A stretch of DNA of 64,000 nt. Origin: Armatimonadota bacterium (GTDB lineage: Bacteria; Armatimonadota; UBA5829; DTLH01). The stretch covers positions 32,001 through 96,000 of the forward strand of contig JBDKUN010000065.1 of NCBI GenBank assembly GCA_039679675.1. Direction: 5' to 3'. Every line of letters begins with the position of its first letter. Position 1 is the stretch's first letter. The notes beneath the pieces were generated by a model. It was not told where the DNA came from. It saw only the letters and a list, made by a program, of their open reading frames with translations, and did no database searches. Of the stretch, positions 12,461 through 21,126 are shown one piece after another. Position numbers and translations under genes: made by a program.

Positions 12461-13351
12461 CTATGCCCTTGGGTGAGATTTTCTATATACTTCACGCAGG
12501 TGGTCGCGCGTGACATGGGTATAGACCTGCGTCGTTGCAATATCTGCATGCCCCAGCATCTCCTGTATCGACCTTATGTCCGCGCCGTGCTCCAGAAGAT
12601 GCGTCGCAAATGAATGCCTGAGCACGTGAGGAGTTATTTGCTTGGTTATCCCTGCAGATTCCGCATGCTTTTTGACGATCTTCCAGAAGCTGACCCTTGT
12701 CATAGGACCGCCGAGGCGCGTAATAAACAAATACTCGTTCCTCCGGCCTTTTGCGAATACCGGTCGGCTCTCGTTCAGATAACGGCGGATCATCCCGACG
12801 GCTATATCGCCTATCGGCACGACACGCTCTTTGGAACCTTTTCCGACACATCTCACAAACCCTACACCCAGGTTCACATCGTTCGTGAGCAGGTTTACAA
12901 GCTCGGACACCCTGAGTCCCGTCGCGTACATCGTCTCAAGCATCGCCCGGTCTCTTATTCCGTTGGGCTCGGACAGGTCAGGCTGGTTTAGGAGCCTGAC
13001 GATATCGTCTTCAGTGAGTATCTTCGGAAGCGGTTTTGCCGGCCGAGGGTTCTCGATAAAACCTGCGGGATCGCCTGAAATATCACCTTCGCGCTGAAGA
13101 AACTTGAGAAATGTTCTAAGAGCAGCGAATTTTCTTTCCACGCTCGCTGCAGCATACTTCTCGCGACGGAGTCTTGCGATAAACTGAGTAATGAGCTCTT
13201 CACGAATGCCTTTGACCGTGTCTACACCCATTTCGTCAGAATATGCGGCAAACTGGGCGATGTCCCGCGCATAGGAAGCTATGGTATTCTCCGAAAGGCC
13301 GCGCTCGACCATAAGATAATCGAGAAATTTCTGAATATGGGCGTCCATCAT
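12461..13351 (-). CDS. xerD: Site-specific tyrosine recombinase XerD
   Basis: RDRAMLETMYATGLRVSEL, GKGSKER, HVLRHSFATHLL, LGHADIATTQVY, HPRA terminus; next to deoB. Confidence 0.93.
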   Translation of the reverse strand: MMDAHIQKFLDYLMVERGLSENTIASYARDIAQFAAYSDEMGVDTVKGIREELITQFIARLRREKYAAASVERKFAALRTFLKFLQREGDISGDPAGFIENPRPAKPLPKILTEDDIVRLLNQPDLSEPNGIRDRAMLETMYATGLRVSELVNLLTNDVNLGVGFVRCVGKGSKERVVPIGDIAVGMIRRYLNESRPVFAKGRRNEYLFITRLGGPMTRVSFWKIVKKHAESAGITKQITPHVLRHSFATHLLEHGADIRSIQEMLGHADIATTQVYTHVTRDHLREVYRKSHPRA

Positions 13352-14985
13352 ATTTTCCGGTAGACCTTTATCGTCGGTGACATATACTTCAGGTCATGCG
13401 GCAGGTTTTCGGTCGGACCGAAGGAGATATTGAAGGCTTTCAGATCTCTTTTGAATACTGCAACCTCTTTGTAAGACTTTTTCAAGCCTTCCAAAAACTT
13501 CATAGCGCTTGGAACCTGCAGCCGAACGGCATCTTCATACTCAAAATCGGTCATTACGATATATTCCGGCATTTCCTCATTCACAATCGACGGGTCCCAT
13601 TCCCCGCCGGGACCGGGGTTGACCTTGATACTGTAGCGCGAGTTAAGCGTCCCCTGAAACCGGTCGCTCCGGTTTACAGCCGTAGAGTCCGGCGAGATCG
13701 GTGGAGTATAAAACCACGGCACAGTCGGAAGCCCGATTGCAGCTGACGGCTTTATATTATCACTGAACCACTGCGCAGCCTGTGTTCTCGTGTCCGGTGC
13801 CAGGAACAGCAGGTCGAAAGATATCGCATAAATGCAGGTATAGCCTACTGCAGCAACGCATATACCGGCCCAGACCCACCTGAGCATCGCCGTCCCCTGC
13901 TCTTTCGCCACCTGGTAGACTTCCACTATCATACGGCCGACGAGTACCGCAAGAGGCGGAAGTATCAGGATCATATAGCGGGCGAACCTTACTTCCGACA
14001 TTGAGATCATCGCGTAGTAAGGAAGCACGAACGACAGTATAAGCCAATCAGCCGGTTTCCGGCGTACTACAGCCAGTGCGACTGCAGCAAGGACCACCAC
14101 AAGCAGAAATACCCCAAGCCCATAACCGAGCGAGTTGGAAAGAATATCGAGCCAGCCGGGACCCTTCCCCACAAACACAAGCCCATGCCCGCTTCCCGCG
14201 TGCCTTAGCTCGTAAGTAAACCCTTCGATGAACCGACCAGGACGAATAAGGACCGCCGGTGTAGAGATAAGAAATCCGGTCAGGAACGAGGGTGCTATCA
14301 TCCAAAACCTAGAGTCTTTCAGCCGCTTCAGGACTGAGACCTTGCCTTCTCTCAAAAAATGAGCCAAGAGAACTGGGATCAGCACAACTCCCGCGTTATA
14401 TTTGGTACCTGCGGCGATACCTGCCACGATGCCTGCCGCAATGTACCATTTAGGAGCCGGTTTTGCGATAATCATCGCTGAAGCAAGTAACGTTACAGCT
14501 ACCCAGAATGCGGCGGGGACATCTACCGTTGCAAAATGAGAGTGAACGATGTGAAGCGGAATGATGGCCATAATGACGGCAGCTAACACGCCTGCCGCAC
14601 GTCCGTAAAGCCGGTTTGCGGCCCCGTAGACGGCCAAAACGGTCAGCGTGCCGAGAATAACGACGGTAAGCCTGGCAATCAGATAGACACTGACAAGCGT
14701 TTTGTCTATCGTTACCCCGTAATACGGCGCGGTATGAACCGCAAGCGCGCCGAGGTTCATATATCCTGACGGATAATTATAGAAACCAGGGTCGAGCTGA
14801 AACGAAAATGGGTCGATCCTCAGCATAGCACCGATCTGGAAGATTTCATCCGGATGGTATGTAAACTGATGAAAAGCGTCGGGCAAACCCCAGTGGATAC
14901 CCCATATACGGAGTACAAACGCAGTGATCGTTATAAAAGTGACTGCAGCAGTCACCCATAGCTTTGCGGCAGGTTGTTTCTTCAT
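13348..14985 (-). CDS. GT-C superfamily (ArnT/PMT-like) membrane glycosyltransferase
   Basis: HPDE loop motif, YNYPS, HSHFATVD, TKY, RY motifs, many TM segments; ATG overlaps the upstream stop (TAATG at 14983-14987). Confidence 0.8.
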   Translation of the reverse strand: MKKQPAAKLWVTAAVTFITITAFVLRIWGIHWGLPDAFHQFTYHPDEIFQIGAMLRIDPFSFQLDPGFYNYPSGYMNLGALAVHTAPYYGVTIDKTLVSVYLIARLTVVILGTLTVLAVYGAANRLYGRAAGVLAAVIMAIIPLHIVHSHFATVDVPAAFWVAVTLLASAMIIAKPAPKWYIAAGIVAGIAAGTKYNAGVVLIPVLLAHFLREGKVSVLKRLKDSRFWMIAPSFLTGFLISTPAVLIRPGRFIEGFTYELRHAGSGHGLVFVGKGPGWLDILSNSLGYGLGVFLLVVVLAAVALAVVRRKPADWLILSFVLPYYAMISMSEVRFARYMILILPPLAVLVGRMIVEVYQVAKEQGTAMLRWVWAGICVAAVGYTCIYAISFDLLFLAPDTRTQAAQWFSDNIKPSAAIGLPTVPWFYTPPISPDSTAVNRSDRFQGTLNSRYSIKVNPGPGGEWDPSIVNEEMPEYIVMTDFEYEDAVRLQVPSAMKFLEGLKKSYKEVAVFKRDLKAFNISFGPTENLPHDLKYMSPTIKVYRKI

Positions 14986-15611
14986 TAGTCCGGGCAACCT
15001 TCCTTTGCTGCTCGTGAGGTTTTCGACTTTTTCGGACACATCGTTAGCTGGATCAGGATAAATATGCCAACAGCCATCAGAACATCGCCAATGCTGAATA
15101 TCCCCGAAAACACCTTTGAAAGCCCACATGGAAGAGCATCCGTAATGAGTTTAGGCACCGGTATAGTATCTCCCAGGAAATTGAATTTTGACCAGGCGCT
15201 ACCAGACATTACGATGTGTCTCATACCTTCTGACCGATTCAATACATCCGCCACTCCCGCTATGGCAGCGGCTTTTTCGGAAACAGGCATCTTTCCAGCG
15301 TTAAGCACTATCGGAAACAGGTTCAACACCCATCCGGCCAGGAACCACTTCATCCCCGGCAGTTTTCTATTCGCCCAGAAAAATACAAGAAACGCAATGC
15401 TCGCGATTATGTGCAGCAGGCCGGTCAGATGGGACCAGAGGATGGTTTTACCTAAATATTTCCCCAACACCATGGAAACGATGATAATGAACGCCGGGAT
15501 AAAGACAAGCCACAGGCTTTTTATCTCCAGATCCGCAAGCCGCCGGAGCCGCCCGCGGCGTATGAGCGCTATTATAATCGAGAGAATACCGGCCTCAAAC
15601 GCCAATTTCAC
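14985..15611 (-). CDS. DUF5317-like membrane protein with signal-peptidase-II-like motifs
   Basis: Hydrophobic; GxxLN...NAGKMPV, FLGDTI, IFSIGDVL; likely start GTG 15611 or TTG 15605 overlapping the upstream gene end. Confidence 0.75.
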   Translation of the reverse strand: MKLAFEAGILSIIIALIRRGRLRRLADLEIKSLWLVFIPAFIIIVSMVLGKYLGKTILWSHLTGLLHIIASIAFLVFFWANRKLPGMKWFLAGWVLNLFPIVLNAGKMPVSEKAAAIAGVADVLNRSEGMRHIVMSGSAWSKFNFLGDTIPVPKLITDALPCGLSKVFSGIFSIGDVLMAVGIFILIQLTMCPKKSKTSRAAKEGCPD

Positions 15612-16293
15612 ACCTGCCTTCATTCTTTTCAAGGACTTTCAAAAATGCATCCACAACTGAAGGATCGTATTTATTACCGAAACCACTTTTTATCTGCAAT
15701 ATAGCCTCTTCCTTCGGCTGAGACTGATGATATGGTCTGTCCGAAATGATGGCATCATAATCGGTAGTTACAGCAAGAATACGTGATGCAAGAGGTATAT
15801 CCTCACCCGACAACCCATCAGGATAGCCGGTCCCATCCCAATGTTCGTGGTGATGAAGGATCGAATCCCTCAAAAATGAAAGCGACGGCACTGCCTGTAC
15901 CATATCCGCACCGAGTGTCGAGTGACTCTTTACTTTCTCCCACTCAACAGGAGTCAGAGGCTCGCTCTTGTTGAGCAGCATTGCCGGAACATTCACCTTC
16001 CCGATGTCCCTCAAAAGCGCGGCATATTCTATCTCCAGCCGTTTATCTGTATCTATCCCCAGCTCATCCGCAACAGCAGTCGCATACTCGGCTACCCTCT
16101 TTGCATGGCCGATGGTACCAGAGTCCCTGGTTTCGACGGCAGCCGCAAGAGCATAAAGCGCCTTTTTGAAGGCTAACTCCATCTTGCGAGGTTGATAGAA
16201 GCTGGAATAATACCAACTTCCAAAGGTTATGATCGCAGCAACAGCCACCGCGATTATAACCGGCGGTGTCCACTGGCTAGCCATTGCCTCCAA
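15595..16293 (-). CDS. Single-TM HD-GYP domain protein with degenerate HD motif
   Basis: ETRD...GH, LRDIGK (H to R), HHHEHWDGTGYP, SDRPY; start ATG 16284 or TTG 16293. Confidence 0.85.
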   Translation of the reverse strand: MEAMASQWTPPVIIAVAVAAIITFGSWYYSSFYQPRKMELAFKKALYALAAAVETRDSGTIGHAKRVAEYATAVADELGIDTDKRLEIEYAALLRDIGKVNVPAMLLNKSEPLTPVEWEKVKSHSTLGADMVQAVPSLSFLRDSILHHHEHWDGTGYPDGLSGEDIPLASRILAVTTDYDAIISDRPYHQSQPKEEAILQIKSGFGNKYDPSVVDAFLKVLEKNEGRCEIGV

Positions 16294-17824
16294 CCCTTAT
16301 CCCCTCCCTGTCGACCATCTTGAGAAATGCATGCACAACATCCGGTGAAAATTGCGATCCGGCGCCTCTTCTAAGCTCGTTGATCGCATCATCGACACTA
16401 AGCGGTTCTCGATATACTCTGCGTTTCGGAGCGCCGCAGACAGGGCATACTTCCGGGCGCTCGCCGTTTTCAGCCTTGAAACCGCATGCATCGCACTCCC
16501 AGTCCACGGACATCTCCCGGTCATCCGTCATAGCATCGAATGCATCCGCAACAGCGATAATTGCGGCCTCCAGCGGAACTCCGCCGTTTTTCACTCCATC
16601 GTCAGGATAACCCGCACCATTTGCCCATTTGTGGTGATACTTTATCCAGTCTACTGTCTGGTTCAAAAAGTCGATATGCTCGACAATTTCTGCGCCTTTT
16701 ACCGGATGCTCTTTGATCTTCGACCATTCCTCATCCGTCAGCTTTCCAACTTTGTCCAGGATTTCCTCAGATACTCCCACTTTTCCGATGTCATGCAGCA
16801 GCCCAGCATAAGGCATAAGCATAATCGTCTCGGTGGAAAGCCGGAGTTCTCTTGCAAGCCGCTCTGAAAGCTCAGCAACGCGCTTCAGGTGCCCTCTTGT
16901 ATACGGATGGTAATGCTGCATATAGGTACCTAATGTGGCGATAGTATCCATATACATTTTCTCTCGCTCGACAGCTCTCTGAACCGCGAGACGGAGTGAA
17001 AGAAACGGCCCAAGCGCAACTAATCCACTCAATATACCGACATGAAGATACAGATAGATCAAAAGGACCGTGACCGGCGGAAGCAGCAGATATTGGCTCC
17101 ATGTCAGGCGGACGCTGCCCAGAAGCAAGATTTTCAACCTCAGGACAAAGCTGTACCAATCACTGCCTTTTTTAGGCGATTGAGGCTCATTTACCAGAGC
17201 TGCAGCAGCGCACCGCGCTTCATCAACTATAAAATATGTAATTATGCCGACTAAAAACGGCAGCGCGGCATGCAGGAAAAGCATGCTGTTTGAAGCGGAC
17301 ATAAAGTACCGCTGATCCAGAACATGCCCCCCTACGCATCTGTACGCAAGAGCTGCAAGTCCCACATTTATTACATCAAGCGCAGTATTGGCGATTATGA
17401 TTTCAAGTGCCCAGAAAAACGGATAATTCGCTCTACCTTCCCAGGCACCCGCTAAAGTCCTGATAATACTGTGAAGGCGGGTCGTTCCGGTATCTGATTC
17501 ATGGTTTTTCAGCCACCTGGCACACACCCATCCGGTAATATTGACGACAGGTAAAGGAATTGCGGCGACGAGCATTGCGAGGACAGGTCCGAACAGCACC
17601 ATTGCAGCCCAATGCATGGGAACGCTTATCGTTACTTCTCCCAAGCCATGCGGCACTGTAATAGGAGTTAGCTCCGACCATATTGCAAGTATTGCAAAGG
17701 CTAATGCCCCTTTCCAGACACCTGCCTCAGGCGGAATCACCCATAGCATTACGACTGCTATAGCCACCGCGGTCACTATCGATCCGCGGTAAAATAGATG
17801 AAACGACCTCTTACTACTTGCCAT
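16277..17824 (-). CDS. Multi-TM sensor plus HD-GYP phosphodiesterase with rubredoxin-like insertion
   Basis: Several hydrophobic segments, LLHDIGK, EHP, HHK..GAGYP, ADAFDAMT, inserted CDAC-x12-CPVC. Confidence 0.88.
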   Translation of the reverse strand: MASSKRSFHLFYRGSIVTAVAIAVVMLWVIPPEAGVWKGALAFAILAIWSELTPITVPHGLGEVTISVPMHWAAMVLFGPVLAMLVAAIPLPVVNITGWVCARWLKNHESDTGTTRLHSIIRTLAGAWEGRANYPFFWALEIIIANTALDVINVGLAALAYRCVGGHVLDQRYFMSASNSMLFLHAALPFLVGIITYFIVDEARCAAAALVNEPQSPKKGSDWYSFVLRLKILLLGSVRLTWSQYLLLPPVTVLLIYLYLHVGILSGLVALGPFLSLRLAVQRAVEREKMYMDTIATLGTYMQHYHPYTRGHLKRVAELSERLARELRLSTETIMLMPYAGLLHDIGKVGVSEEILDKVGKLTDEEWSKIKEHPVKGAEIVEHIDFLNQTVDWIKYHHKWANGAGYPDDGVKNGGVPLEAAIIAVADAFDAMTDDREMSVDWECDACGFKAENGERPEVCPVCGAPKRRVYREPLSVDDAINELRRGAGSQFSPDVVHAFLKMVDREGIRVGGNG

Positions 17825-17953
17825 TCAAACCATGTGGGCTGTCTAGAGCTTAATTTCGATGCTAGAGCAATGGCTCTAGTCTATAGTATGCCATCTTTGA
17901 AGCGTAACCTCTATCGGTAAAGACGGCGAATATTTTAGCATAATAATAAAATT

Positions 17954-18240
17954 ATTGAGCCAACGGCAGCGACAGTTTTATTTCAGGAACTGCTGTGTAC
18001 CTGCATACATCCATCAGTTCAATAATTGTAAACTATGGTGGTGGCCACTGTCTCCATGTGGCTCCGCAGGTTGCAGCCAGTGTCGCCAATGCGATCAGTA
18101 CCTTGAACAGGCGTTTCATGTTTTTCAACCCCTTTCGCGTGATACTACCCCTTACCGCTCAGATGGGGTGCATTCATCGCTTCGCTCGGGTTGACTTTTC
18201 CGCTCATTTTTGGATCTGCCGCTCGCGCCGTTGGCTCAAT
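17954..18240 (-). promoter_or_regulatory. Long-range inverted repeat enclosing the small peptide gene
   Basis: attgagccaacggc (17954-17967) is the exact reverse complement of 18227-18240; pairing extends about 8 bp past a 3-nt bulge with a G-U pair on the minus transcript. Confidence 0.75.
18033..18119 (-). CDS. Unannotated 28-aa secreted peptide precursor MKRLFKVLIALATLAATCGATWRQWPPP
   Basis: AAAGGGG RBS then ATG; basic N-region, hydrophobic core, GA, short Trp-rich tail; same strand as flanking genes. Confidence 0.8.
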   Translation of the reverse strand: MKRLFKVLIALATLAATCGATWRQWPPP

Positions 18241-18247
18241 TTGAAAA

Positions 18248-18901
18248 CTATTCTTTAGTTATCAATGTGGTTCGCCGGTTAATGGCATCCAGTGTAGCAT
18301 TAACCACAGCTTTCCATAAATCCTGCCTGACTATCGCGGAACCTGTTAAATAATCATCCCCGCGGTTCGTGACAAAATTGATCAATACTACAACAATATT
18401 CTTTCCGGCAAGATTGACTCCTGTGGTCATGTCTTCGACTACCATAGTACCGTCAGCCGCGCCTGCATCTTCGACCGCGCGCAGCGTTGCAGTCGCAATG
18501 AGCTTCATCTGGCTACTGCTCGAGCTTAAGCCCGTAGCAGTTCCCGTGTAAGCCACACCGTCTCTCCCTAAATGGACCGTAGCCTCTGCTCTGCTCCCTT
18601 CAAGAGAGATCGAAACGTCTGAAAACTTTAATCTGCCCTGCTCCTTTTTCTCATTACCCTGAAGTTGAGCTACGCTGACCTTTCGATGATCCAGCTGGAC
18701 GCCAAGTTTGGCCATAACCGCCGATTCGATGTCACGCACAACCTGTTTTGGGGCTCTACTTGCTTCCGTCAGAACGTGAATCTCCTCGATCTCTCCATCA
18801 TCGCCGGAAACTACCCGCGCAGATATCACATCGCGCAGCCGGCATATAACGGACTCAACATCAATCAGGTCGTCGATATTTTCTTTTCTTTCGACTGCCA
18901 T
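18248..18901 (-). CDS. Conserved cytoplasmic protein (PKQVVRDIES motif), C-terminal half resembling the LeuA allosteric domain
   Basis: EIHVL...PKQVVRDIES...DHRKVSVAQL; duplicated beta-beta-beta-alpha pattern ending AVVNATLDAINR; AAAGGAG RBS. Confidence 0.7.
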   Translation of the reverse strand: MAVERKENIDDLIDVESVICRLRDVISARVVSGDDGEIEEIHVLTEASRAPKQVVRDIESAVMAKLGVQLDHRKVSVAQLQGNEKKEQGRLKFSDVSISLEGSRAEATVHLGRDGVAYTGTATGLSSSSSQMKLIATATLRAVEDAGAADGTMVVEDMTTGVNLAGKNIVVVLINFVTNRGDDYLTGSAIVRQDLWKAVVNATLDAINRRTTLITKE

Positions 18902-19035
18902 TCTCCGCTCTCCTTTCGCCGCTACTTCCTTAAAGCGGCGCCCTCTCTTTTCCTCGCTTCGCCATTCGTGACTTTTATCGTCCGAATGGTCCTTTGCCTG
19001 AAAACCGGCTATATAATTCTTGCACCGTTCTTCAG

Positions 19036-21126
19036 CTACCCACGGAATATCGCTTTGAACTCCGATGCAAGATTATCTTTTATTTTTTCAAGAACAGCGT
19101 TGATTTCCTCGTCCTTAAGTGTACGTTCTTTCGATCTGAAAACTATTGAGAGTGTCAGACTCTGCTCATCCTCGCTCACATGCGGGCCGACATATACGTC
19201 CAGAAGGCTCACATCTTCAAGAATAGCCCCACCTGCTTCGATAACTGCTCTTCTGATGTCACCATAGGGCACATCCCGCTTCACAACGGCAGCAATATGC
19301 CTGTAAAGAGCCGGGAACTTCGGAAGATGTTCGTATACTATCTTCTCAGGAACAAGAGACTTCAGTTTCTCAACACTCAGTTCAAATATATACGGACGTC
19401 CCTTTATATCCAGCTCGTTTATGACTTCAGGAGCGACTTCACCGATGATACCTATCTCTGCATTACCGGCTGTAATCTTTGCGGCTCTGGTCGGGTGAAG
19501 CATAGGGTGCTCAGTGCGCTCGAACCTCACACCGGAAATCTTCAATCTGTCGAAGATATTCTCGACAACTCCCTTTATGAGATAAAAATCAGCCGCCATC
19601 GCTTCTTTATCCAGGTTCCAAGAGTTTGACCACTGATTTCCGACCATTGCACCTGCCACTGACAGCCACTCGGTCACAGCTTTGTCCTTTTCCAGCCAGC
19701 GATAGACTTTACCGATCTCGTAGATGCTCATATCACGGATCCCGTTCGCCTGGTTCCTCACGATGACCCGGAGCAGGTTCGGTGCAATCATTGTCCTCAT
19801 CCCCGCTGTTTCCCAACTGAGCTGGTTTCGCACGAAGATAGAGTTTTCCTGACCGGCGATTCTGATGCTGTTATGATCTATAAGGCTGTGTGTAAGGACT
19901 TCCTGCATCCCTGAGGACATAAGCGTCCGCCGCATTTCCTGCACGAAAAGCCCCATGTCGCTGTCTTTGCCCTGGAACGGCGCAGGCGGAAGAGTGCTGC
20001 CGATGCTCTCATAGCCATAAGCTCTCGCAATCTCTTCGATCACATCTGCCTCGAGCCGTATATCCGGCCTGAACGTCGGAACCGTTACGACAATATCTTC
20101 ATCTTCAAGAGTTGCAGGTATCTGGTACACTTCAAGGAATGACACCATTTCCTGGGCACTCAAAGAGGTGTCGAGCATTGCGTTTACCCGTTCAGGGCGG
20201 ACAGTAACCTTGAATATGTTATCTTTGGCAGGATACAGGTCTACAAGGCCTTCGGCTATTTCGCCGTCAGCCAGGTCCCGCATAAGCTCAGCGGCTCGTT
20301 TGGCTACCATGTCAGCTGTGCCGATATCCACCGAACGCTCAAACCGGTAACTGGACTCTGTTACGATACCGAGCTTCTTTGAAGTCCTTCTGATAGAGAC
20401 CGGATTAAAGTGCGCAGACTCTATGAGAATATTCTTCGTGTCGGGTTTTACCTCAGAATCAAAGCCGCCCATAATCCCTGCAAGCCCGACAGCGCGGTTT
20501 TTATCAGCAATAACGAGCATGTCAGAACCCAGCTCGCGCTCTTCACCGTCAAGAGTAGTCAGCTTCTCGCCGGCATTTGCGCGACGGACTATGATCTCTT
20601 TCCCCTCCAAGAGGCTGTAATCGAACGCATGCAGTGGTTGTCCCATCTCAAGCATCACATAGTTGGTGATATCCACTATGTTATTGATCGGCCTCATGCC
20701 TGCGCGGATCAGCCGGTTCTTCATCCAGGCTGGGGAATCCTTTACCGTCACATTGCGGACAACGACGCCGACATACCTGTCACAGAGGTCAGGATCTTTA
20801 ATAGTGATCTTTATCTCCGATGCGGATGAAGGCGGAACGCCTGAAGCTTCAGGCTGGGGTATTTTGACGGGGCTTTTGGTAAAAGCGGCGACTTCGCGGG
20901 CGACACCGATAAGCGACAGCCAGTCCCCTCGGTTCGGCGTGACTTTCGTAAGCATCACGCGGCTGTCCACAGCATCAGGCATGCCTCCTGCGTGGGAGAC
21001 CTCTTCACTTTCCATCGAAGAGATCTCCTCGACCTCAAGCCCGGCCATAGTAAGCTTATCAGCCAACTCCTCGACTGATCCGCCTGTCTCTACATATTCA
21101 TTAAGCCATTCAACTGGAACTCTCAT
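19036..21126 (-). CDS. pheT: Phenylalanine-tRNA ligase beta subunit (short form without B2 OB domain)
   Basis: TPNRGD, INNIVDITNYV, GQPLHAFD, RFERSVD, RPDI...EEIAR, FDX-ACB C-terminus. Confidence 0.95.
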   Translation of the reverse strand: MRVPVEWLNEYVETGGSVEELADKLTMAGLEVEEISSMESEEVSHAGGMPDAVDSRVMLTKVTPNRGDWLSLIGVAREVAAFTKSPVKIPQPEASGVPPSSASEIKITIKDPDLCDRYVGVVVRNVTVKDSPAWMKNRLIRAGMRPINNIVDITNYVMLEMGQPLHAFDYSLLEGKEIIVRRANAGEKLTTLDGEERELGSDMLVIADKNRAVGLAGIMGGFDSEVKPDTKNILIESAHFNPVSIRRTSKKLGIVTESSYRFERSVDIGTADMVAKRAAELMRDLADGEIAEGLVDLYPAKDNIFKVTVRPERVNAMLDTSLSAQEMVSFLEVYQIPATLEDEDIVVTVPTFRPDIRLEADVIEEIARAYGYESIGSTLPPAPFQGKDSDMGLFVQEMRRTLMSSGMQEVLTHSLIDHNSIRIAGQENSIFVRNQLSWETAGMRTMIAPNLLRVIVRNQANGIRDMSIYEIGKVYRWLEKDKAVTEWLSVAGAMVGNQWSNSWNLDKEAMAADFYLIKGVVENIFDRLKISGVRFERTEHPMLHPTRAAKITAGNAEIGIIGEVAPEVINELDIKGRPYIFELSVEKLKSLVPEKIVYEHLPKFPALYRHIAAVVKRDVPYGDIRRAVIEAGGAILEDVSLLDVYVGPHVSEDEQSLTLSIVFRSKERTLKDEEINAVLEKIKDNLASEFKAIFRG

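What the first reader, a model, noticed from the sequence alone, without database searches (positions are those of the whole stretch)
14985..18901. Candidate undescribed peptide-signalling system: secreted micropeptide, SPase-II-like DUF5317 protein and membrane HD-GYP receptor pair
Seen: five co-directional genes. In order, they are a 217-aa cytoplasmic protein, a 28-aa ORF missed by the ORF track (signal-like N-terminus, tail GA-TWRQWPPP), a multi-TM HD-GYP, a single-TM degenerate HD-GYP and a DUF5317-like membrane protein. The last three overlap at their ends. Known: HD-GYP domains hydrolyse cyclic dinucleotides, and agr-type systems group precursor, membrane peptidase and membrane sensor. 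Inference: the peptide is exported and cleaved by the DUF5317 protein, and the released Trp-rich fragment is sensed by the TM domain. This would be quorum-sensing logic wired to a phosphodiesterase instead of a histidine kinase.
Basis: partly seen in the sequence, partly recalled or inferred. Interest (0 to 1): 0.92.

Follow-up and report, generated by a model that had tools for sequence, protein, structure and literature searches.

The report
Hidden micropeptide gene beside c-di-GMP sensor
A real but never-annotated 28-codon gene for a tiny membrane peptide, wrapped in a conserved folded RNA, sits between an unknown regulatory protein and a membrane enzyme that breaks down the bacterial messenger c-di-GMP, and the whole set recurs in at least five phyla, so it looks like an undescribed control layer for that enzyme rather than a proven secreted signal.

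Summary
All five genes are present, and the 28-codon ORF (window 18036-18119, minus strand) is a real gene. A comparable micro-ORF with a Shine-Dalgarno site lies in the same slot in 50 of 57 homologous loci. It evolves under purifying selection.

- The ORF lies inside a conserved RNA structure not in Rfam. It has an outer helix with compensatory changes, invariant AGCGRAGCG and AGCG motifs, and a paired Shine-Dalgarno site.
- The 217-aa protein is the most constant partner. It has a ferredoxin-like domain and a LeuA/citramalate-synthase-type regulatory domain.
- The multi-TM HD-GYP belongs to the MASE9-HD-GYP family (HdgA/TM1467 type), and its degenerate neighbour mirrors HdgB.

DUF5317 shows no sequence or fold likeness to signal peptidase II, the peptide has no conserved lipobox cysteine, and the genome has its own LspA. 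DUF5317 does track the hydrophobic "LAGGA" peptide type across lineages, with one exception.

Best reading (about 0.5): a membrane-resident micropeptide partner of MASE9 and/or DUF5317, made under RNA-level translational control. Secretion, cleavage and quorum sensing are untested (about 0.12).

This scan noted the same module earlier on other DNA. My searches found no paper describing it.

The parts
18248..18901 (-). p217: 217-aa cytoplasmic protein with an N-terminal ferredoxin-like alpha-beta-beta-alpha-beta domain and a C-terminal LeuA/citramalate-synthase-type regulatory domain. It is the most constant neighbour of the RNA and micro-ORF.
   Evidence: No Pfam hit. 646 homologues, nearly all named hypothetical. 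AlphaFold model at pLDDT 89. Foldseek hit to LeuA 1sr9_B at E 1.4e-6. VIA hit to 3f6g_B at Z 9.4, 109 aligned, rmsd 3.2; the N-domain matches MamM/CzcD CTD, ANL C-subdomains and EscJ at Z 7.5-9.3.
17954..18240 (-). Structured RNA element that encloses the micro-ORF. The outer helix P1 has its 5' arm at 18226-18240 (starting 7 nt after the p217 stop) and its 3' arm at 17954-17968.
   Evidence: Alignments. P1 cells are 97.9% paired, 10 of 14 pairs show compensatory changes, 0 of 500 shuffles reach this, and slid controls give 27-51% for the whole structure. The Bacillota P1 is 98.7% paired with 7 of 11 pairs compensatory. No Rfam family at E<=10.
18117..18194 (-). 5' leader core. P2a is TCAACCC 18188-18194 paired with GGGTTGA 18125-18131, which covers the Shine-Dalgarno G-run. 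The invariant AGCGAAGCG is at 18178-18186. The P3 hairpin is 18165-18169 with 18147-18151, carrying AGCG in its loop at 18156-18159. The SD-like AAAGGGG is at 18129-18135.
   Evidence: AGCGNAGCG and the loop AGCG are invariant in 33 of 33 leaders from several phyla. There are 41 distinct P3 5' arms among 50 leaders. On the CM-guided alignment 13 of 18 pairs show changes on both sides, 87.8% of cells are paired and 0 of 500 shuffles reach this. There is one copy per genome, always just after p217.
18033..18119 (-). Micro-ORF of 28 codons plus stop: MKRLFKVLIALATLAATCGATWRQWPPP. It has a basic N-terminus, a roughly 17-residue hydrophobic helix, a small-residue xGA turn and an aromatic/proline tail.
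   Evidence: Present in the same slot in 50 of 57 loci. pN/pS is 0.43 in frame against 1.14 and 1.72 off frame. Alignment A7 has L17 invariant and G22/A23 nearly invariant across Armatimonadota and Bacillota. None of 10 peptides is present in a 15-billion-protein collection.
17881..17895 (-). Conserved TGGCATA(A/C)T box between the RNA element and the HD-GYP gene. It is a candidate extended -10 promoter for the HD-GYP operon (inference only).
   Evidence: The box is conserved in the intergenic alignment of family-level relatives. The consensus promoter scan did not call it.
16277..17824 (-). HD515: multi-TM (divergent MASE9) HD-GYP phosphodiesterase with a rubredoxin-like CxxC...CxxC insert. 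HD, HH and GYP are present, but HHE reads HHK.
   Evidence: HD_5 1.3e-27 and RUBY_RBDX 1.9e-7. 17 of 34 aligned homologues match MASE9 PF20972, best 4.9e-13. Atlas lead to MASE9 clusters.
15595..16293 (-). HD232: single-TM HD-GYP with a degenerate HD dyad (RD). It is the counterpart of HdgB.
   Evidence: HD_5 8.2e-41. LLRDIGK occurs here and in 6 relatives, with MD in one. An hdgA/hdgB operon of the same make-up exists in S. venezuelae (PMC6205966, passages).
14985..15632 (-). DUF5317: five-helix membrane protein. Invariant residues are N88, N104, N111 (NGGxMPV), P116, S180-x-G182-D183, and D155 is nearly invariant. Its fold is unknown.
   Evidence: PF17248 4e-28. Alignment A4. Model at pLDDT 86. 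No fold match was found. It co-occurs with p217: 23 genomes have both, 14 neither and 4 are discordant, out of 41.
13348..14985 (-). PMT_2/GT-C glycosyltransferase. It is a clade-specific neighbour, not part of the core module. Its likely start overlaps the DUF5317 stop.
   Evidence: PMT_2 8.2e-16. It is syntenic only in Armatimonadota. tblastn alignments start near residue 46-76 of the long ORF.

Best explanation
The locus is a conserved signalling module. Its centre is an unannotated gene for a 24-30 aa peptide, 28 aa here.

Shown:
- The ORF is protein-coding and conserved across phyla.
- It is enclosed by a long-range RNA helix (P1).
- It is preceded by a structured leader with two invariant AGCG-type motifs, and helices in that leader pair with the Shine-Dalgarno or start region.
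- The element occurs once per genome, always directly after the p217 gene.
- It is followed by a MASE9-type HD-GYP phosphodiesterase gene.

Inferred:
- The peptide inserts into the membrane as a single helix, with its basic N-terminus inside and its GGA-aromatic tail at the outer face.
- There it acts as an in-membrane partner or ligand of the MASE9 sensor domain and/or of DUF5317, and so tunes c-di-GMP hydrolysis.
- How much peptide is made is set at translation initiation by the leader fold. That fold may respond to a factor that reads the AGCG motifs, or to ribosomes finishing p217 7 nt upstream of P1.
- p217, with its amino-acid-type regulatory domain, is a cytoplasmic input or accessory subunit.
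- DUF5317 handles or binds the hydrophobic LAGGA-type peptide at the outer face. Whether it cuts the peptide is open.
For: Coding signal. A micro-ORF with an SD site is found in 50 of 57 loci. Third-codon-position variation is 0.59, against 0.35 and 0.26 at positions 1 and 2. pN/pS is 0.43 in frame against 1.14 and 1.72 off frame in 17 Armatimonadota, and 0.61 against 1.04 and 1.23 in 16 Bacillota.

Peptide conservation. The helix is conserved residue by residue across two phyla. It is more constrained than the tail, with pN/pS 0.13 against 0.54 within the family.

RNA. P1 and the leader helices show compensatory changes. The motifs are invariant in 33 of 33 leaders. There is a single copy per genome, next to p217, in 23 of 23 genomes with a hit.

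Module. p217, the micro-ORF and the multi-TM HD-GYP are linked in Armatimonadota, Bacillota, Gemmatimonadota/Longimicrobiales, Desulfobacteria-type MAGs and Actinomycetota. The trio stays together when DUF5317 lies on another contig.

MASE9. 17 of 34 homologues match PF20972. Galperin and Chou suggest that MASE9 binds its ligand within the membrane (bioRxiv 10.1101/2021.11.05.467447, passages).

DUF5317. It was found in the genomes with LAGGA-type peptides that I checked. It was not found in 10 of 10 genomes with non-hydrophobic peptide types.
Against: There is no direct evidence of translation, membrane insertion or binding. No RNA-seq run holding the locus was listed.

The window's own HD515 does not reach a MASE9 Pfam score. 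Its HHE motif reads HHK, so its activity is uncertain.

One genome, G040 (97% complete), has a LAGGA-like peptide and both HD-GYPs but no DUF5317.

The conserved small-residue GGA followed by a short variable tail is also what a signal-peptidase site would look like.

The fold hits for p217 are generic regulatory folds and give no support for RNA binding.

The S. venezuelae hdgA and hdgB mutants had no developmental phenotype (PMC6205966), so the physiological role is unknown.
Confidence: 0.5

Rival explanations
1. The peptide is a precursor. It is exported and cut after the GGA motif by DUF5317, acting as a new outer-face aspartyl peptidase. The released 4-8 residue aromatic tail (here TWRQWPPP) is a diffusible signal sensed by the membrane HD-GYP, giving quorum-sensing logic wired to c-di-GMP hydrolysis.
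For: The N-region, h-region and small-residue GGA layout resembles a signal peptide, and G22/A23 are nearly invariant. The tail is the fastest-evolving part. DUF5317 has invariant D183 (SxGD) and nearly invariant D155 in or next to a large conserved loop. DUF5317 tracks the hydrophobic LAGGA-type peptides: it was found with them and not found in 10 of 10 genomes with other peptide types. From recall, short hydrophobic pheromone precursors of similar size exist (SHP/Rgg, ComS/XIP).
Against: DUF5317 shows no profile or fold likeness to LspA or any listed peptidase. The Cys is not conserved, so there is no lipobox. The helix, not the tail, is the most conserved part across phyla. Within Armatimonadota the tail keeps one pattern (xWxxWPPP) over a whole order, which is unlike strain-specific pheromones. 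The module works without DUF5317 in Gemmatimonadota, some Oscillospiraceae, Capsulimonadaceae and G040. No exporter or RRNPP-type receptor is in the module.
Confidence: 0.12
2. The micro-ORF is only a regulatory leader ORF. What matters is the act of translating it, which opens P1 and the leader and couples p217, the ORF and the downstream HD-GYP, or prevents a P1-plus-U-tract terminator. The peptide product has no function.
For: P1's 5' arm starts 3-20 nt after the p217 stop in most loci. Its 3' arm starts 0-12 nt after the micro-ORF stop in Bacillota and Gemmatimonadota, so terminating ribosomes would melt it. The SD or start region is paired in all clades. In the Dethiobacter-type loci P1 is followed by a U-run. 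In Armatimonadota the ORF ends in WPPP-stop, and proline runs are known to slow ribosomes (from recall).
Against: Residue-level conservation of the helix, and purifying selection along the whole ORF, extend across phyla. The C-terminal residues nearest the peptidyl-transferase centre are the least conserved, and PPP is confined to one phylum. In the window the HD-GYP gene starts 130 nt beyond P1 behind its own conserved promoter-like box. The HD-GYP ribosome-binding site is not inside P1 in the Bacillota loci read.
Confidence: 0.13
3. The peptide's true partner is p217 (for example as a membrane anchor for it) or another membrane protein, rather than MASE9 or DUF5317. The HD-GYP would then be only a co-regulated output.
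For: Adjacency of p217 and the RNA/micro-ORF is the most constant feature: 23 of 23 genomes in the order, and also across phyla. p217 is found in the same genomes as the RNA.
Against: The peptide leaves only 3-6 cytoplasmic residues to contact a soluble protein. The multi-TM HD-GYP follows the micro-ORF in every sufficiently long locus. The peptide type co-varies with the presence of DUF5317, not with any visible feature of p217.
Confidence: 0.12

Closest known systems
MASE9-HD-GYP phosphodiesterases: T. maritima TM1467, and S. venezuelae HdgA with its degenerate neighbour HdgB
   Same: They share a multi-TM N-terminal sensor fused to HD-GYP. 17 of 34 homologues of HD515 match PF20972. An active-type and a degenerate HD-GYP gene lie side by side in one operon and are membrane-bound (PMC6205966, passages; bioRxiv 10.1101/2021.11.05.467447, passages).
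   Different: In the passages and term searches I ran, neither paper mentions a micro-ORF, an RNA leader, DUF5317 or a p217-type protein ('DUF5317' and 'small protein' each occur 0 times in the preprint). The window protein is too divergent to score on the Pfam MASE9 model. It carries a rubredoxin-like insert and HHK in place of HHE.
Small membrane-protein regulators of sensors and transporters (MgrB and SafA with PhoQ, AcrZ with AcrB, KdpF); names from recall, plus search listings
   Same: They work in the same way: a peptide under 50 aa with a single hydrophobic helix, encoded beside or co-regulated with a larger membrane protein that it is thought to modulate.
   Different: There is no sequence relationship. 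The target here would be a c-di-GMP phosphodiesterase sensor domain. The gene is embedded in a conserved RNA fold. The family spans at least five phyla, and binding has not been shown.
Leader-ORF and RNA-helix control systems (erm/cat leaders, secM-secA, mifM-yidC2); from recall
   Same: A short ORF lies inside an mRNA structure whose helices occlude a ribosome-binding site, so translation would remodel the fold.
   Different: Here the paired site is the micro-ORF's own Shine-Dalgarno site. The peptide's N-terminal helix, not its C-terminal arrest segment, is conserved. At 24-30 residues the peptide would still be inside the ribosome tunnel at termination, so force-sensing arrest release is implausible.
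Peptide quorum-sensing systems (agr AgrD/AgrB/AgrC; SHP-Rgg; Phr-Rap); from recall
   Same: They have a small hydrophobic precursor gene clustered with membrane proteins and a signalling output, and the peptide's C-terminus is variable.
   Different: No AgrB, histidine kinase, RRNPP receptor or exporter domain is in the module. The output is an HD-GYP. The helix is more conserved than the tail.
Lipoprotein signal peptidase II, LspA (Peptidase_A8, PF01252)
   Same: Both are small polytopic membrane proteins with conserved aspartates near the outer face (DUF5317 D155 and D183; the topology is my inference).
   Different: hhalign probability is 0.9%. No PF01252 hit appears. LspA was not among the fold matches. 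The peptide has no conserved lipobox Cys. A canonical LspA is encoded elsewhere in the genome.

Membership tests
DUF5317 (PF17248) | Match to the Pfam model above its gathering score | tested here: met
   E 4e-28, 98.8 bits against a cut-off of 25, covering profile positions 2-151 of 151.
Signal peptidase II / Peptidase_A8 (PF01252), for the DUF5317 protein | Sequence or profile similarity to LspA | tested here: not met
   No PF01252 hit at E<=0.1. hhalign of 27 DUF5317 sequences against 12 LspA sequences gives probability 0.9% over 18 columns.
Signal peptidase II / Peptidase_A8 (PF01252), for the DUF5317 protein | LspA fold | tested here: inconclusive
   The best Foldseek PDB hit has E 1.2. 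The best VIA wide hit has Z 7.0 on helical hairpins only. LspA was not listed.
Signal peptidase II / Peptidase_A8 (PF01252), for the DUF5317 protein | Substrate with a lipobox ending in an invariant Cys | tested here: not met
   Cys at the position before GA occurs in only some Armatimonadota. Elsewhere that position is S, A or G (alignment A7).
HD-GYP (PF13487 HD_5) | Domain match and catalytic motifs HD, HHE and GYP | tested here: met
   HD515 scores 1.3e-27 and has HD (H344, D345), HH (397, 398) and GYP, but HHK in place of HHE. HD232 scores 8.2e-41, keeps HHE...GYP and has RD in place of HD, so it is degenerate.
MASE9 (PF20972) | Match of the N-terminal membrane domain to the Pfam model | tested here: inconclusive
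   The window protein has no hit at E<=0.1. 17 of 34 aligned homologues hit, best 4.9e-13. 11 of the 18 scanned singly hit at E<=0.01, 9 of them above the 24.3-bit cut-off. Atlas lead at 0.90.
LeuA/citramalate synthase regulatory domain (PF08502 LeuA_dimer), for p217 residues about 89-212 | Sequence match to PF08502 | tested here: not met
   No Pfam hit for the window protein at E<=0.1. One of the 120 listed homologue clusters carries PF08502.
LeuA/citramalate synthase regulatory domain (PF08502 LeuA_dimer), for p217 residues about 89-212 | Shared fold | tested here: met
   Foldseek gives 1sr9_B at E 1.4e-6 and 3f6g_A at TMt 0.58. VIA gives 3f6g_B at Z 9.4, 109 aligned, rmsd 3.2.
Any Rfam family, for the RNA element | Covariance-model match | tested here: not met
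   There is no meaningful hit at E<=10 in window 17600-18500; the two listed have E 4.5 and 9.4. No gathering-score hit falls on the element in 10 homologous loci.
agr-type quorum sensing | AgrB-type peptidase and histidine-kinase receptor next to the precursor | tested here: not met
   Pfam and NCBIfam scans of the neighbouring proteins show only HD-GYP, DUF5317 and PMT_2.
Small single-helix membrane-protein regulators (functional class) | Under 50 aa with one hydrophobic helix; physical binding to a larger membrane protein | not testable with these tools
   Size and helix are met. Binding cannot be established here.

The most novel reading that the evidence does not exclude
DUF5317 is a new kind of outer-face membrane aspartyl peptidase. 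It clips the LAGGA micropeptide after GGA and releases a 4-8 residue aromatic tail, which acts as an auto-inducer on the MASE9 domain. This would be a peptide-signalling system whose direct output is c-di-GMP hydrolysis. Synthesis of the precursor would be gated by a new RNA switch, with the LeuA-like p217 as a metabolite input.
Probability: 0.12. Interest if true: 0.93.

Novelty: new variant of a known kind. Interest (0 to 1): 0.77.

Why it matters
MASE9-HD-GYP enzymes are widespread, yet they have no known signal and no phenotype in the one organism where they were deleted.

A conserved, never-annotated membrane micropeptide encoded directly in front of them gives a concrete candidate for the missing in-membrane ligand or regulator. 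Two further uncharacterised partners (p217 and DUF5317) and an RNA fold absent from Rfam come with it.

This makes the open question of what these sensors sense directly testable.

The finding also adds a family of proteins of 30 aa or fewer, spanning at least five phyla, that gene callers miss completely. The RNA fold, with two invariant AGCG motifs, has an unknown reader.

Tried and rejected
- Complex prediction of the 31-aa peptide (alignment A7) with HD515 residues 1-290 (alignment A6) gave the verdict 'no answer', ipSAE 0.02 in both runs, and controls were not run. It is not evidence either way.
- The look-up of sequencing runs (kind rna) listed no RNA holder. Three metatranscriptome runs of the same study held next to none of the words.
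- The Rfam searches found nothing on the element.
- RNAalifold on cross-phylum MAFFT alignments of the leader gave no or wrong consensus, because the hairpin was mis-registered. I therefore set the structure by hand on 12 Armatimonadota leaders and re-aligned with the covariance model. That alignment leans towards the structure.
- The idea that p217 is the RNA-binding reader of the AGCG motifs has no support. Weak dsRBD/S5 Foldseek hits (E 1e-3 to 1e-2) were not borne out by VIA, which shows generic ferredoxin-like regulatory domains. The idea is kept only as a speculation.
- The DUF5317 fold searches listed no peptidase.
- The promoter/terminator consensus scan of 17600-19100 found nothing above chance: 3 promoter-like sites against 1.7 expected, and 0 terminators.
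The exact look-up of 10 peptides found none.
- The published version of the Galperin and Chou paper (PMC9017333) is not held, so I read passages of the preprint.
Whether TM1467 and hdgA are preceded by the RNA and micro-ORF is therefore not checked.
- In 15 more divergent Actinomycetota p217 loci (L141-L152, L154-L156) my SD-based heuristic found no convincing micro-ORF. This may be a limit of the heuristic.

Full report
**What is there**

All genes of the finding lie on the minus strand.
- p217 is at 18248-18901.
- A 28-codon ORF runs from ATG 18119 to 18036, with its stop at 18033-18035.
- A 515-aa multi-TM HD-GYP (HD515) is at 16277-17824.
- A 232-aa single-TM HD-GYP (HD232) is at 15595-16293.
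- A 215-aa DUF5317 protein is at 14985-15632.

Pfam gives HD_5 at 1.3e-27 for HD515, with a rubredoxin-like insert at 1.9e-7. It gives HD_5 at 8.2e-41 for HD232 and DUF5317 at 4e-28. It gives nothing for p217 or the peptide, and NCBIfam adds nothing for p217 or the peptide. The flanks are pheT upstream and a PMT_2 glycosyltransferase and xerD downstream. Titles of related records place the organism in Armatimonadota.

**The micro-ORF is a real gene**

I fetched 13-kb neighbourhoods from 20 relatives. The order pheT, p217, micro-ORF, HD515, HD232, DUF5317, PMT, xerD is syntenic across the order.

A search with p217 then brought 48 loci from other Armatimonadota, Bacillota (Geosporobacter, Dethiobacter, Desulfitobacterium, Peptococcaceae, Oscillospiraceae), Gemmatimonadota/Longimicrobiales, and MAGs labelled Desulfobacteria, Deferrimicrobium and Actinomycetes.

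In 50 of the 57 downstream regions examined, a 23-30 codon ORF with a strong Shine-Dalgarno site sits in the same slot. The seven misses are:
- three Capsulimonadaceae, which have a different 25-26 codon ORF;
- three regions cut by contig ends;
- one region (L084) with none found.

Peptides of Armatimonadota and Bacillota align as one family: M-x-[KR]-L-x-K-V-L-x-A-L-x-T-L-x-L-A-G-G-A followed by a short aromatic/basic tail. L17 is invariant and G22/A23 are nearly invariant. Seven Actinomycetota loci carry the same type. Gemmatimonadota, two Oscillospiraceae and the Capsulimonadaceae have less hydrophobic peptides of the same length.

The substitution patterns are those of a coding sequence.
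- Pairwise difference is 0.35, 0.26 and 0.59 at codon positions 1, 2 and 3.
- pN/pS is 0.43 in frame against 1.14 and 1.72 in the other frames (17 Armatimonadota).
- pN/pS is 0.61 against 1.04 and 1.23 (16 Bacillota).

Within the window's family the helix is more constrained than the tail, with pN/pS 0.13 against 0.54. None of 10 peptides tried is present in a 15-billion-protein collection, so gene callers have never called them.

The intergenic alignment shows that the ORF is enclosed by a long-range helix, P1. In the window its arms are ATTGAGCCAACGGCG at 18226-18240 and TGCCGTTGGCTCAAT at 17954-17968.

A helix search found an ORF-flanking helix in all 50 regions. In 47 it matched the relatives' arms. 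In L074, L077 and L087 the finder picked another helix, but the relatives' arm sequences are visible in the output. The arm sequences differ between phyla: GAGCCAACGGCG, GGTCGGC, GGGCCGAC, GACCCCCGG, AGCGGGTTCGCAG.

| Set | P1 cells paired | Pairs with change on both sides | Shuffles reaching the overall paired fraction | Slid controls |
|---|---|---|---|---|
| 14 Armatimonadota | 97.9% | 10 of 14 | 0 of 500 | 27-51% |
| 15 Bacillota | 98.7% | 7 of 11 | 0 of 500 | 17-49% |

The 5' leader has these features.
- It holds an invariant AGCG-N-AGCG and a second invariant AGCG in 33 of 33 leaders aligned across phyla.
- The second AGCG usually sits in the loop of a hairpin, P3, whose stem varies freely. 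There are 41 distinct 5' arms among 50 leaders.
- In Peptococcaceae-type loci two tandem AGCGRAGCGG copies replace the hairpin.
- Helices pair with the Shine-Dalgarno G-run (in the window TCAACCC with GGGTTGA) or with the spacer just before the start codon.

I built a covariance model from 12 leaders with a hand-set structure. It recovered Armatimonadota and Bacillota leaders. On the model-guided alignment, which leans towards the structure, 13 of 18 pairs show changes on both sides and 87.8% of cells pair. No shuffle out of 500 reaches this, and slid controls give 27-53%.

The second-round model finds exactly one copy in the window's genome. It also finds one copy in each of 23 of 41 relatives. 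In all 23 the copy lies 60-340 nt downstream of the p217 match (coordinates).

Rfam has no family for it.

P1's 5' arm begins 7 nt after the p217 stop in the window, and within 20 nt in most loci. Its 3' arm begins 0-12 nt after the micro-ORF stop in Bacillota and Gemmatimonadota, and 36-75 nt after it in Armatimonadota.

**The partners**

*p217.* It has 646 homologues, almost all named hypothetical. Its model (pLDDT 89) has two domains.
- The N-terminal domain is a ferredoxin-like alpha-beta-beta-alpha-beta fold. Its nearest matches are CDF-transporter C-terminal domains, ANL C-subdomains and EscJ, at Z 7.5-9.3.
- The C-terminal domain has the fold of the LeuA/citramalate-synthase regulatory domain. 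Foldseek gives 1sr9_B at E 1.4e-6, and VIA gives 3f6g_B at Z 9.4 with 109 residues aligned.

p217 therefore looks like a small-molecule-binding regulatory protein. I found no good support for RNA binding.

*HD515.* Its family is MASE9-HD-GYP. 17 of 34 aligned homologues match PF20972 (per protein), although the window protein itself is too divergent to score. Galperin and Chou defined MASE9 from T. maritima TM1467. They suggested that its ligand binds within the membrane and named S. venezuelae HdgA as the only studied member (preprint, passages). In S. venezuelae, hdgA and the degenerate hdgB form an operon. Both proteins are membrane-bound, and the mutants have no developmental phenotype (PMC6205966, passages). 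That is the same pair as HD515 and HD232.

*DUF5317.* No paper in the searched library contains this name.

**DUF5317 and the 'SPase II' idea**

The evidence against an SPase II relationship is as follows.
- A profile of 27 DUF5317 proteins against 12 LspA proteins gives hhalign probability 0.9%.
- The DUF5317 model (pLDDT 86) has no PDB fold match. The best Foldseek hit has E 1.2, and the best VIA hit has Z 7.0 on helical hairpins only.
- The genome has a canonical LspA elsewhere.
- The peptide's Cys is not conserved.

DUF5317 is nevertheless a true module member. Across the same 41 relatives, p217 and DUF5317 are both present in 23 and both not found in 14. DUF5317 alone occurs in 2 (a contig end or an incomplete genome), and p217 alone in 2.

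It can sit elsewhere in the genome while p217, the RNA/micro-ORF and HD515 stay together.

It also tracks the peptide type.
- It was found in the genomes with hydrophobic LAGGA-type peptides that I checked: G041, G042, G044, G249, G250 and the 23 Armatimonadota.
- It was not found in 10 of 10 genomes whose peptides are of the other types: six Gemmatimonadota/Longimicrobiales, two Oscillospiraceae and two Capsulimonadaceae.
- The Oscillospiraceae contrast lies within one family.

The two p217-only relatives are informative.
- In G018 the leader has lost its AGCG motifs and the peptide helix is disrupted.
- G040 keeps a LAGGA-like peptide and both HD-GYPs, with no DUF5317 between HD232 and PMT. 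It is one clear exception.

Kin are not independent, so I count about three independent contrasts in favour and one exception.

DUF5317's invariant polar residues are N88, N104, N111 in NGGxMPV, D155 and S180-x-G-D183. By my positive-inside reading they lie in or beside the large loop on the outer face. That is the same side as the peptide's GGA-tail. This topology is an inference.

**How it most likely works**

Shown:
- a coding, conserved micro-ORF;
- a conserved RNA fold that pairs the ORF's own ribosome-binding site and encloses the ORF;
- fixed linkage to p217 and a MASE9-type HD-GYP;
- frequent linkage to DUF5317.

Inferred:
- the peptide is a membrane-resident single helix that acts on MASE9 and/or DUF5317 to tune c-di-GMP hydrolysis;
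- its synthesis is gated by the leader;
- p217 supplies a metabolite input.

I put this at about 0.5. The rivals are a cleaved, secreted signal (0.12), a leader ORF whose product is irrelevant (0.13), and a different partner such as p217 (0.12). The remainder is something I have not thought of.

**Comparison and novelty**

The module works like the small membrane-protein regulators of sensors, such as MgrB and SafA with PhoQ (from recall), but shares no sequence with them.
- My literature searches found no description of the peptide, the RNA or the module: 'DUF5317' gave 0 papers, 'MASE9' gave 2, and HD-GYP with small ORF or small protein terms gave nothing relevant.
- The nearest hit, a C. 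difficile small-protein family behind c-di-GMP riboswitches (PMC13724677, passages), concerns longer proteins with several helices.
- Supplements of the papers were not read.

The tally of p217 in 52 of 201 sampled Actinomycetota genomes includes five genomes flagged unpublished (G046, G063, G093, G193, G219). No other claim rests on them.

**Earlier notes of this scan**

After forming the above reading I looked up the scan's notes. The same module had been noted on other DNA at least eight times, in Gemmatimonadota, Gaiellaceae, Chloroflexota, Limnocylindria and other Armatimonadota. Those notes included the folded RNA, the p217-type accessory protein and an 'LspA-like motif, different fold' reading of DUF5317. 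They are AI notes, not independent evidence. They agree with what I tested here.

Noticed in passing
L060:1220-1757 and L061:1468-1970 (Geosporobacter): A raiA RNA (169-172 bits) and a c-di-GMP-I riboswitch (71-76 bits) lie in tandem about 2.2 kb upstream of the p217 gene. I did not work out which genes they control, or whether they feed into the module.
   Followed up: no
window 16400-16500 (HD515 residues about 442-468): A rubredoxin-like CxxC...CxxC insert (PF21349, 1.9e-7) sits inside the HD-GYP domain, just after the AVADAFDAMT motif. It is present in 10 of 34 aligned homologues, all Armatimonadota. The same clade has HHK(W)xNGxGYP instead of HHExxDGxGYP.
   Followed up: partly
window 14983-14987: The long PMT ORF as listed (start 15129) overlaps DUF5317 by 145 nt. 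Homologue alignments start near residue 46-76, and an ATG at 14985 would overlap the DUF5317 stop by one base, which suggests translational coupling.
   Followed up: partly
L032:3350-4140 (G005) and L158:1230-1473 (G018): Short tandem or inverted repeat arrays (GGTTAGAGG-type in L032, TTTAGTTGCTTCGGTATCC-type in L158) are inserted next to the RNA element. In L032 they extend P1 to 37 bp. In G018 they accompany a decayed leader and peptide.
   Followed up: no
L152, about 110-185 nt after the p217 homologue: A 24-codon ORF, MSKRARKRRARKNSAANHGNRPNA, lies there in an actinobacterial locus. From recall it resembles the tiny actinobacterial ribosomal protein bL37. It is unrelated to the module's peptide.
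   Followed up: no
L060:6107-7472 and L061:6125-7468: Geosporobacter carries two DUF5317 paralogues in tandem after the HD-GYP gene.
   Followed up: no
L093:4001-5766: A Longimicrobiales locus has two p217 paralogues in tandem before the RNA and micro-ORF.
   Followed up: no
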